A stretch of DNA of 62,849 nt, filler included, from Pirum gemmata (Eukaryota): assembly GCA_002812295.1 (NCBI GenBank). It is 23 parts of 23 records of this genome, joined end to end, with 100 filler letters (N's around TTAATTAATTAA, not from the genome) between each part and the next. Parts side by side here need not be neighbours in the genome. Positions count along the whole stretch, not along the records: positions 34,190 to 37,562 come from PDIN01006077.1; 22 more parts are not named here. One strand, given 5' to 3'. Both the position numbers and the translations under genes were made by a program. The notes beneath the pieces are model-generated. The model did no database searches and was not told the origin of the DNA. It saw only the letters and a list, made by a program, of their open reading frames with translations. Each line of letters opens with the position of its first letter. The first letter of the stretch is position 1. Positions 35,275-37,348 of this stretch are shown here, piece by piece.

Positions 35275-37348
35275 CTTCTGGAATAGCTGAGTTAGACGAG
35301 CCTGGATATAAAGTTTTGCATATTCAAGATATAGACTATGATACTACTTCTTACACTTTTGTAGACAGTTTGACAACAATAAAAAATTGGTCTACAGCTA
35401 ACGTAGGTAAATAAAAAAGCTAAGATCTTTATCTATTAATAGTTATAGATTTTGGAAAGGTGGAGAGTGGATGGTGGTTGTTAGTAGAGTGTTATTATTG
35501 TTTAAGATGTTTGAAGAAGATATTTGTAAGGAGCTCTTTTTAAAAAGTTTAATCAAAAACAAGATTGATAATTAATCATTTATTATTTTGATCACGTTTA
35601 TTAACGTTAATTGCGTTATGAATTTATTGATTGGTTGCTTTATAATTTTATTGCGTTATTGATTTATTGATTAGTTTGCTTCTTCTCTTTAGTAATTCAT
35701 TGATTGGTTGGTTTAGCACTTATTTTTTTTATCCCTTACTTTATTCTTTATCTTGTGTACAGGTCATTTGCCGATCACTATTTTCCTAGAAGTTAAAGAA
35801 GATACGATTGATGATCCATTAGCCTTAGGCTTAGCTATACCAGAAAAAGCAAATTTCACTACTCTAGAGGAAGAAATAAGGAGTGTTTTCAACGTGGCTA
35901 CCGATTTAATAATCCCTGATAATATCCGTGGGGCTAATCTTACTTTAAAAGCTGGTGTTTTGACTAATGGTTGGCCGACACTAGCTGCTTCTAGAGGGAA
36001 AATCATGTTTGTTCTTTTGACTTACCAAGATGATTACGTTGGCGGTGACTTTTCTTTAACTGGAAAGGTAAGCTATGAAAAATGAAGTATTTTGCTTAGA
36101 ATTATTGACAATTTACATGAAGAAATTAATATATATATATCCTTTCTACTACTATTATTATTGTTTACTACGATGGTAGAAGAATACTATCAAAAATTTG
36201 TTGTGAGCATTGAAATGCAAAACCTTTTTTAATCATTATCTTTTCACCCTTTTTTGTTAGTTATTGTTTCCTATGTCAGATACTACTCGCGAGGACGCTG
36301 CCTTTATTGACCGTCCAGATCCACTTGAGGCCACTGATATTGGTACCCTTGTAACTACCGGTTACATGGTTAGAGCAAGATGTGATATTGGAACAATACA
36401 GGCAAGAAATGGTAATACTACCATGAGAGACGAGGCAATATCCTCGGGTGCACAATATATTTCTACCGATTATCCATTTCCTTTAATTGAAAACGTGAAC
36501 ATAGAATTAGGTACTAACTATGCGGTGAATTTAAGACCAAGATGCAATCCTATCAATACTAATGTTAACTGTGTCCAAACTAGTACAGGGGAACAGCCAA
36601 TGGTAACTGTACCAGGTAAAAAGTTTTAAACAAAATAGAAACTTCAGAAGAATAAGTTTCGTTATTATTATTATTATTAGCCCTGAGCCCTTAACTCTAA
36701 ATCTTAATGCTAAACGGTAAACCGTAGACCATAAACACTAAACCCTAAACCCTGAATCGTAAACCATAAACCCTAGACCGTAAGCCCAAATTCTAAACCC
36801 TAAACCCTAATTCTAAACCCTAAACCCTAAGCCTTAACCCTAATCCTAAGCCCTAAACCTAATCCCTAAACCTCAAACCTAATCCCTAATCAACCCCTAG
36901 GCAACCAAACCACAATCCTAAACTCTTAACTCGAACCTACCCCTAACCAATAATTCAATGTACCAGATGAGCTATATGTGTCTTCCGGTGATAACAATTC
37001 ATTTAGTTTTGCGGATTTATTCCCCGATGGTGTAGCTTTGGATGATAAAACGACTGATTTTATTAAAGAATGGACAACCTTAGCTGGGCGAAATTCGACT
37101 ATGTTTGAAATTCCATTTTTTTTGCCCAAAATTTACAAACCCAGCTTTATCACCAATTCTATGCATTCTATACCTCGAATTTCCGGTACAGACGAATTTT
37201 CAGCTTCGACTGACTATTTGAAGGGCTTGGCTCTGATTTGTGGTATTTTAGTAGGCGTGGGACTCTTGTTAACCGTGTTGACAACCGTGTGGTTATATTG
37301 CTGTTGTTGTAAAAAGAAAAAGAAACTTGATGAAAAATACGATAGAAG
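35275..37348 (+). CDS. Partial gene: Ca-dependent PI-phospholipase C (Streptomyces PLC1 / PI-PLC-C1-like) fused to a Tweety-like N-terminus and TM1; exons 35275-35406, 35763-36067, 36261-36615, 36967-37348
   Basis: PLC motifs PGYKVLHIQDIDY, IKNWS.AN.GHLPITIFLEVK, GWPTLAASRGKIMF, GYMVRARCD, SGAQYISTDYP and RCNPIN. Last exon has YKPSFITNSMHSIPR...DYLKGL-TM-CCCC. Intron phases 1, 0, 1 are all compatible. Confidence 0.82.
36680..36950 (-). repeat. Degenerate CCCTAAA/CCCTAA telomere-like intronic array
   Basis: Direct reading; inside the intron joining the PLC and Tweety-like exons. Confidence 0.85.

What the first reader, a model, noticed from the sequence alone, without database searches (positions are those of the whole stretch)
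35275..37348. Bacterial-type PI-phospholipase C fused in frame to a Tweety-like membrane protein
Seen: three exons encode a Ca-dependent PI-PLC (Streptomyces PLC1-like). A phase-1 intron (36616-36966, CCAG|GTAAAA...TACCAG) joins them in frame to an exon reading YKPSFITNSMHSIPRISGTDEFSASTDYLKGLALICGILVGVGLLLTVLTTVWLYCCCC. Known: TTYH1 begins YRPSAWVHLLHQLPR...EYQQALLLVAALAGLGLGLSLIFIAVYLIRFCCC, Tweety N-termini are extracellular, and the family is linked to lipid and membrane handling. Inference: an ecto-phospholipase tethered to a 5-TM Tweety module, possibly coupling PI/GPI cleavage to lipid uptake. I know of no described protein with this architecture.
Basis: partly seen in the sequence, partly recalled or inferred. 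Interest (0 to 1): 0.9.

Follow-up and report, generated by a model that had tools for sequence, protein, structure and literature searches.

The report
Phospholipase C fused to Tweety protein
A spliced gene, shared with other single-celled relatives of animals, joins a bacterial-type lipid-cutting enzyme to a Tweety membrane protein, likely forming one machine that cuts lipids outside the cytoplasm and passes them to or from the membrane, which would give a direct way to test what Tweety proteins do.

Summary
The fusion is real and conserved. Four exons (35275-37348) read in frame, and one contig of a likely RNA run skips all three introns, including 36616-36966. Exons 1-3 match Pfam PI-PLC-C1 positions 90-329 of 329; exon 4 alone gives only a weak Tweety hit. 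A search with exon 4 returned three full-length proteins with both domains above Pfam cut-offs: one from Abeoforma, one from Creolimax (both Ichthyosporea) and one unnamed. The Creolimax model matches TTYH2 (Z 29) and Ca-dependent PI-PLCs (Z 22-24). The window holds only part of the gene. The first PLC exon(s) and about 334 middle codons are absent. Putative catalytic residues are intact in the homologues. Most likely a lumenal or extracellular PLC coupled to Tweety's lipid cavity; activity, substrate, location and coupling are untested. Ten literature searches and three look-ups in this scan's earlier findings showed no description of it.

The parts
35275..35406 (+). First PLC exon present in the window (not the first exon of the gene); holds the second putative catalytic His (35319-35321)
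   Evidence: Pfam PI-PLC-C1 positions 90-127, E 1.9e-11; the spliced contig runs 489 nt further 5' into sequence not in the window; position
35763..36067 (+). PLC exon; holds a putative Ca-ligand Glu (35789-35791; role recalled)
   Evidence: PI-PLC-C1 positions 130-232, E 1.9e-20; spliced on both sides
36261..36615 (+). Last PLC exon (conserved Arg 36372-36374, STDYP 36462-36476, CNP 36543-36551) and start of the linker
   Evidence: PI-PLC-C1 positions 235-329, E 2.8e-20; positions
36616..36966 (+). Phase-1 GT-AG intron, 351 nt, with a degenerate telomere-like 7-mer array (36710-36889)
   Evidence: skipped by the spliced contig; repeat
36967..37348 (+). Exon with a 55-residue linker, the Tweety N-terminal motif (YKPS at 37134), first membrane helix (about 37224-37298) and Cys cluster (37299-37310); ends at a phase-2 donor
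   Evidence: Tweety positions 2-69, E 5e-4, below cut-off; best hits are full PLC-Tweety fusions; pre-helix motif beats 2000 of 2000 shuffles against 4 of 5 Tweety N-termini
34395..34651 (+). Last coding exon of the Tweety module (last ectodomain Cys, fifth membrane helix about 34418-34498, cytoplasmic tail, TAA stop), placed upstream in the scaffold
   Evidence: one 1324-nt contig begins with 37321-37348 and ends with 34401-34682, and the frames agree; aligns to residues 812-892 of the Abeoforma fusion, E 6e-7; profile probability 91%; acceptor AG 34393-34394
34652..34967 (+). Likely 3' untranslated region
   Evidence: covered by two contigs of run X1 (34401-34682, 34752-34967)
34999..35129 (.). 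(ATT)n run holding a single-N scaffold join at 35063; the order of the two sides is unreliable

Best explanation
This is a spliced gene for a protein of roughly 920-930 residues in which a bacterial-type Ca-dependent PI-phospholipase C domain is fused in front of a five-helix Tweety module, and it likely works as a coupled lipid-harvesting unit on the lumenal or outer face of a membrane. Shown: the fusion, its splicing, its presence in other ichthyosporeans, and both folds and the putative catalytic residues in full-length homologues. Inferred step 1: a signal peptide and Tweety topology (N-terminus outside) put the PLC outside the cytoplasm, at the cell surface or in an endosome or vacuole. 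Inferred step 2: the PLC cuts the phosphodiester head group off an inositol lipid. Inferred step 3: Tweety's hydrophobic cavity lowers the barrier for moving the lipid, either inserting the diacylglycerol or ceramide product into the bilayer or lifting substrate to the enzyme. The linker is probably flexible, so the coupling would be by tethering rather than by a sealed tunnel.
For: Spliced contig joins the domains. 3 of 5 hits to exon 4 among 1.84 billion representatives are full PLC+Tweety proteins of 900-985 aa (Tweety 35, 68, 75 bits vs cut-off 31.8). They are only 23-30% identical to each other, so the fusion has been kept over long divergence. Model of the Creolimax protein: TTYH2 Z 29.2, rmsd 3.2, 381 aligned; Pseudomonas Ca-PI-PLC Z 24.3, rmsd 2.9, 252 aligned; Streptomyces PLC1 Z 22.4, rmsd 3.5, 261 aligned. 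His35, Asn36, Glu85, Asp87, His126 and Asp131 (Creolimax numbering) are present in 4 of 4 fused sequences and 56 of 56 free PLC relatives. Hydrophobic N-termini in the Abeoforma and unnamed fusions (crude scan). Five membrane segments and the ectodomain Cys residues are kept. TTYHs have an outside N-terminus and a hydrophobic extracellular cavity (PMC8361169, passages); TTYH2 speeds lipid transfer from APOE particles in endosomes (PMC12328215, abstract and Discussion); TTYH1 is implicated in clearing ceramide-1-phosphate from endolysosomes (PMC12126518, abstract).
Against: No activity, substrate or location data. The model does not fix the two domains against each other (pTM 0.53; linker residues 388-413 and 438-454 have pLDDT under 50). 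The PLC domain is only 18-19% identical to the characterised enzymes; its near relatives are uncharacterised. The Creolimax N-terminus is a poor signal peptide. The first His, Asn, Glu and Asp cannot be checked in the window's own gene, and it has lost a Cys pair that the other fusions keep. Transcript evidence is one run of one study, as assembled contigs, and may be the same isolate; the link from exon 4 to the last exon rests on 28 shared letters plus frame agreement.
Confidence: 0.5

Rival explanations
1. The Tweety module only anchors and localises the enzyme; the PLC works on the nearby membrane leaflet on its own and the cavity plays no part.
For: Low-confidence linker and no defined domain contact in the model. 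Free PLC domains are complete without any membrane part: 0 of 81 PLC reading frames in 80 metagenome loci had a membrane segment behind the domain.
Against: A single helix would do for an anchor, yet the whole five-helix fold with its Cys-stabilised flap is kept in all three full-length fusions.
Confidence: 0.22
2. The unit scavenges phosphate or inositol: the prize is the released head group, and Tweety handles the lipid remainder.
For: A PF16670 protein of Flavobacterium is induced by phosphate depletion and sits beside an uptake complex (PMC8115612, passages and table rows; the paper's table appears to swap the labels of two neighbouring genes). Three long bacterial relatives carry a second phosphodiesterase or phosphatase domain (3 of the 6 hits).
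Against: No expression data under phosphate limitation for these organisms; does not by itself explain why Tweety is the partner.
Confidence: 0.13
3. It remodels the cell's own surface or signals: it sheds GPI-anchored proteins or makes diacylglycerol or ceramide in the outer leaflet, for instance during wall remodelling or cellularisation.
For: Topology fits a surface enzyme. Ca-independent bacterial PI-PLCs cleave GPI anchors (PMC10149971 and PMC5371862, passages).
Against: The domain belongs to the Ca-dependent family, and from recall (paper not seen) Streptomyces PLC1 does not cleave GPI anchors. Animal TTYHs are reported mainly in endosomes and lysosomes.
Confidence: 0.13
4. The fusion is an artefact of assembly or gene prediction: two neighbouring genes, or a PLC with a plain membrane anchor.
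For: The scaffold is out of order around 35063, exon 4 alone is below the Tweety cut-off, and contig depth rises from 21 to 37 where the Tweety body starts.
Against: Spliced contig across the junction intron; the same architecture in three independent proteins; the linker itself is homologous between the window and each of the three fusions (0, 2 and 5 of 1000 shuffles as high).
Confidence: 0.02

Closest known systems
Tweety homologues TTYH1-3 (Pfam PF04906; PDB 7P5M, 7P5J, 7P5C, 9G71)
   Same: N-terminal YxP motif, five membrane helices, two helical ectodomains, ectodomain Cys residues, Cys cluster after helix 1; fold match Z 27-29 for the Creolimax homologue.
   Different: Carries a roughly 350-residue enzyme and a 55-70-residue linker in front of the N-terminus, where the human proteins start; 16-19% identity. 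Dimer formation not tested.
Ca-dependent bacterial PI-PLC, Pfam PF16670 (Streptomyces antibioticus PLC1, PDB 3H4W; Pseudomonas sp., PDB 5FYO/5FYP/5FYR)
   Same: Whole Pfam profile matched in the homologues (183-277 bits), same fold (Z 22-24), conserved His/Asn/Glu/Asp set.
   Different: Only 18-19% identical to the solved enzymes; nearer (31-41%) to uncharacterised environmental proteins. Those have no membrane segment behind the domain (0 of 81). A free 290-aa fungal secreted member is listed in PMC10051545 (table row), so the domain is not confined to bacteria.
Free Tweety protein Clim_evm57s148 (456 aa; the prefix suggests Corallochytrium, recalled)
   Same: Close match to the exon-4 motif, Tweety 73 bits; starts right at the YxP motif.
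   Different: No PLC domain. It may show the unfused ancestral state, but its gene model could be cut short; not checked.
Eukaryotic signalling PI-PLCs (PLC beta, gamma, delta, epsilon)
   Same: Related catalytic barrel (Z 16-17).
   Different: Cytoplasmic multi-domain enzymes acting on PIP2; Pfam found none of their accessory domains in the fusions.

Membership tests
Tweety (PF04906) | Pfam profile above the gathering score | tested here: inconclusive
   Window exon 4 alone: 19.2 bits vs 31.8, positions 2-69 only; the middle exons are not in the window. Full-length homologues pass: 35, 68, 75 bits.
Tweety (PF04906) | Five membrane helices with two large outer domains | tested here: met
   Met in the three full-length homologues. 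In the window's gene helices 1 and 5 are seen, and the unseen middle is 334 codons vs 308-313 residues in homologues.
Tweety (PF04906) | TTYH fold | tested here: met
   Models of two homologues: all 11 Foldseek hits at E<=0.001 were TTYH for the Abeoforma model; Z 29.2, rmsd 3.2, 381 aligned for the Creolimax model. The window's own protein was not folded.
Tweety (PF04906) | Conserved ectodomain cysteines of the flap | tested here: met
   DxC, C, C and C columns are conserved in 4 of 4 fusion sequences; the last Cys is in the window's last exon. Disulfide bonding itself is inferred.
Tweety (PF04906) | Dimer formation and lipid-filled cavity | not tested
   No dimer prediction was made; model coordinates were not inspected for the cavity.
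Ca-dependent PI-PLC (PF16670) | Pfam profile above the gathering score | tested here: met
   Each of the three window exons passes on its own: 44, 74, 73 bits vs 29.9.
Ca-dependent PI-PLC (PF16670) | Two catalytic His and the Asn/Glu/Asp/Glu calcium ligands (roles recalled, not read in a paper here) | tested here: inconclusive
   Window: second His and last Glu present; first His, Asn, Glu and Asp lie in the missing 5' exon(s). Homologues: His, Asn, Glu, Asp, His in 4 of 4; the last Glu is Gln in Creolimax.
Ca-dependent PI-PLC (PF16670) | Ca-dependent hydrolysis of phosphatidylinositol | not testable with these tools
   Needs an enzyme assay.
Prominin (PF05478) | Pfam profile above the gathering score | tested here: not met
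   17-18 bits vs 34.3 in 2 of 3 fusions, no hit listed in the third.

The most novel reading that the evidence does not exclude
The first enzyme-bearing Tweety: a single-chain 'cut and insert' machine in which the Tweety cavity shuttles lipid between the bilayer and a covalently attached phospholipase. It would have arisen once in ichthyosporeans after uptake of a bacterial PLC, and would show that moving lipid in or out of the membrane for a soluble partner is the ancestral job of the whole Tweety family.
Probability: 0.35. Interest if true: 0.87.

Novelty: new variant of a known kind. Interest (0 to 1): 0.72.

Why it matters
Tweety proteins were long called chloride channels. Structures and assays argued against that and pointed to lipid handling, with a partner identified for TTYH2 only. 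A natural fusion to a phospholipase in close unicellular relatives of animals is independent evolutionary evidence for the lipid role. It also supplies a built-in enzymatic read-out: cavity mutants can be scored by hydrolysis rate and by where the product goes. It suggests looking for lumenal lipases as partners of TTYH1 and TTYH3, and it is a candidate piece of lipid feeding in ichthyosporeans.

Tried and rejected
No whole genome is held for this window, so the missing exons could not be looked for; they are not in the window. Word-index search with exon 4 among longer proteins: 0 of 519 candidates scored; with exon 3: 1 of 112, a free PLC; with the fusion alignment: 6 of 7996 scored, and only one of the known fusions came back, so that search is insensitive here and the true spread of the fusion is unknown. 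P0004 is a repeat protein with neither domain and was dropped. ESM Atlas gave no usable hit for exon 4 or the Creolimax protein. NCBIfam gave nothing for the fusions. The last exon alone had no Pfam or PDB hit. Complex prediction of the two domains was not available, so domain docking is open. No holder is on record as RNA; the one run is a guess. Laying it at 80% likeness showed only repeat matches in the intron and no second copy of the gene among the rows listed (80 rows not shown). Trees of the PLC domain: the fused copies form one side of a branch at 97/96 in a 40-row tree (40 of 81 rows kept after dropping rows over 65% identical) and at 95 with a mixture model, but not in the 81-row quick tree, nor when either long branch is left out. 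One origin is allowed, not shown, and no donor can be named. Linker similarity among the three full-length fusions themselves was not significant (91-264 of 1000 shuffles). No endosomal sorting motif was found in 5 of 5 cytoplasmic tails by a simple pattern. A misjoin in the telomere-like intron is rejected. Scrambled exons or trans-splicing as the reason for the upstream last exon was considered and set aside as far less likely than an assembly cause; not tested. The Pseudomonas PI-PLC structure paper was not held.

Full report
Setting. The window is a string of 23 small scaffolds (2.4-3.7 kb) joined by N-linkers. The finding lies in scaffold 34190-37562, so genes beyond those ends are unrelated neighbours. 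No whole genome is held. The DNA is AT-rich with spliceosomal introns; from the homologues below the organism is likely an ichthyosporean (inference).

Observation. Exons 35275-35406, 35763-36067, 36261-36615 and 36967-37348 give one stop-free frame of 390 residues. Each of the first three passes the Pfam PI-PLC-C1 cut-off alone, and together they tile profile positions 90-329 of 329. Exon 4 has Tweety as its best hit, but below the cut-off (19.2 vs 31.8 bits; positions 2-69), with single-helix families just behind it. Against the PDB its only two hits at E<=10 were TTYH2 and TTYH1, both weak. On exon 4 alone the Tweety call would be doubtful.

Transcript evidence. One public run holds the stretch (share 0.52; 'RNA?' is the tool's guess; one study; it may be the same isolate). 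A 1666-nt contig skips all three introns at GT..AG with no other letters, including the PLC-Tweety intron, and runs 489 nt further 5' into sequence that is not in the window. A second contig of 1324 nt starts with the last 28 letters of exon 4, continues for 1001 nt that are not on the stretch, and ends on 34401-34682, upstream of the PLC exons. That upstream exon aligns to the fifth helix and tail of a full-length homologue (E 6e-7; profile probability 91%). The 1001 nt put base 34401 at codon position 2, as the exon's own frame requires (a one-in-three check). The inferred protein is about 112-123 + 390 + 334 + 83, roughly 920-930 residues. The 28-letter link is shorter than the 31 letters the tool asks for a bridge, so this step leans on the frame and on homology.

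Why the last exon is upstream. The scaffold has a single N at 35063 inside an (ATT)n run; the two sides overlap only by 16 repeat letters. Both sides belong to the same transcript, so this is unlikely to be a random misjoin. Tandem gene copies or a swapped scaffold order would both explain it. The neighbouring cathepsin scaffold has an exact 113-nt overlap of its two ends, which suggests that tandem repeats are collapsed in this assembly. I could not decide between the two. The depth step from 21 to 37 between the two contigs is unexplained, and contig depth is a poor measure.

Homologues. HMMER with exon 4 against 1.84 billion representatives gave 5 hits at E<=0.001. Three are full PLC-plus-Tweety proteins with both domains above the Pfam cut-offs: Abeoforma whisleri Awhi_evm1s14696 (900 aa), Creolimax fragrantissima CFRG7557T1 (985 aa) and an unnamed 966-aa protein with a 968-aa cluster mate. 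Both named species are Ichthyosporea, Ichthyophonida. One hit is a free Tweety (Clim_evm57s148, 456 aa) that starts at the same YxP motif; one is noise. The window's spliced piece is 38%, 33% and 29% identical to the three fusions across both domains. The 31 residues before the first helix beat all 2000 shuffles against the free Tweety and the three fusions, but 71 of 2000 shuffles matched the score against a more distant Tweety. The linker is homologous between the window and each fusion (0, 2 and 5 of 1000 shuffles), though not detectably among the three fusions themselves. In the best 80 of 125 metagenome loci, none of 81 PLC reading frames had a membrane segment behind the domain and no Tweety match was found.

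Structure. A model of the Creolimax protein from 63 sequences (mean pLDDT 73.7, pTM 0.53) matches TTYH2 over residues 451-874 (Z 29.2, rmsd 3.2, 381 aligned) and the Pseudomonas and Streptomyces Ca-dependent PI-PLCs over about 14-376 (Z 24.3 and 22.4), ahead of other PLCs (Z under 17). The Abeoforma sequence also hits TTYH3 directly (E 2e-7 over residues 449-847). The window's own protein was not folded, as it is incomplete.

Active site. His35, Asn36, Glu85, Asp87, His126 and Asp131 (Creolimax numbering) occur in 4 of 4 fused sequences and 56 of 56 free relatives. Their roles as catalytic histidines and calcium ligands are recalled from the Streptomyces enzyme, not read here. The window's gene shows the second His, the following Asp, the later Glu, Arg and STDYP; the rest lies in the missing 5' part.

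Origin. The fused PLC domains sit among prokaryote-type environmental sequences. They form one group at 97/96 in a 40-row tree, but the group breaks up when either long branch is removed and in the 81-row quick tree. No root or donor can be given. A free member of the family is listed in a fungal secretome (PMC10051545, table row), so uptake from bacteria directly into ichthyosporeans is plausible but not shown.

Mechanism. TTYHs have an outside N-terminus and a hydrophobic cavity rising from the outer leaflet, and showed no ion-channel or scramblase activity (PMC8361169, passages). [quoted passage not shown] The fusion therefore puts the PLC on the same side as the cavity. I favour a coupled unit (0.5): the PLC removes the head group and Tweety moves the lipid into or out of the bilayer. 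Rivals are anchor only (0.22), phosphate or inositol scavenging (0.13), surface remodelling or GPI shedding (0.13) and artefact (0.02). Nothing here shows activity, substrate or location.

Literature. Ten full-text searches listed no paper describing this fusion, judged from listings and abstract starts: 'tweety' with 'ichthyosporea' gave 0 papers, and PF16670 or PI-PLC-C1 gave 2, neither about Tweety in the passages read. A Tweety family review has 0 occurrences of 'phospholipase' in its main text (PMC8273234, passages); PMC8327215 was read in passages only. No supplements were read, and most subscription journals and the InterPro architecture tables could not be searched; the two named proteins are in public proteomes, so the architecture may be listed automatically somewhere. 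Three look-ups in this scan's earlier findings returned nothing on it.

Verdict. A real, spliced, conserved fusion of two known families in an architecture I found no description of: a new variant of a known kind, interest 0.72.

Noticed in passing
window 31592-34089: A papain-family (cathepsin B-like) protease gene is circularly permuted on its scaffold: the 3' end sits at the start (31592-31835), the 5' part at the end (33231-34089), and the two scaffold ends overlap exactly by 113 nt. Likely a collapsed tandem array.
   Followed up: partly
window 34999-35129: Single-N scaffold join inside an (ATT)n run places the gene's last exon upstream of its earlier exons: tandem copies or swapped order.
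   Followed up: partly
window 37321-37348: Two contigs of run X1 meet here with depth 21 (5' side) and 37 (3' side). A branch could mean an allele, a paralogue, or an alternative 5' end giving a Tweety without the PLC; it could also be 3' bias.
   Followed up: partly
window 35340-35380: The window's PLC has lost both cysteines of a pair kept in 4 of 4 other fusion sequences and 42 of 56 free relatives: a coordinated loss of a likely disulfide.
   Followed up: no
window 37900-40089 (minus strand): A multi-exon gene with several repeated KOW/SH3-like modules (Pfam KOW2_Spt5 E 6e-7 on one exon); not identified.
   Followed up: no
13 of 23 scaffolds of the window: Interstitial telomere-like CCCTAA/TTAGGG repeats are widespread, including inside an intron (36710-36889).
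   Followed up: partly
P0008, P0009, P0010: Bacterial PI-PLC-C1 domains fused to a PF03009 or PF03372 phosphoesterase domain.
   Followed up: no
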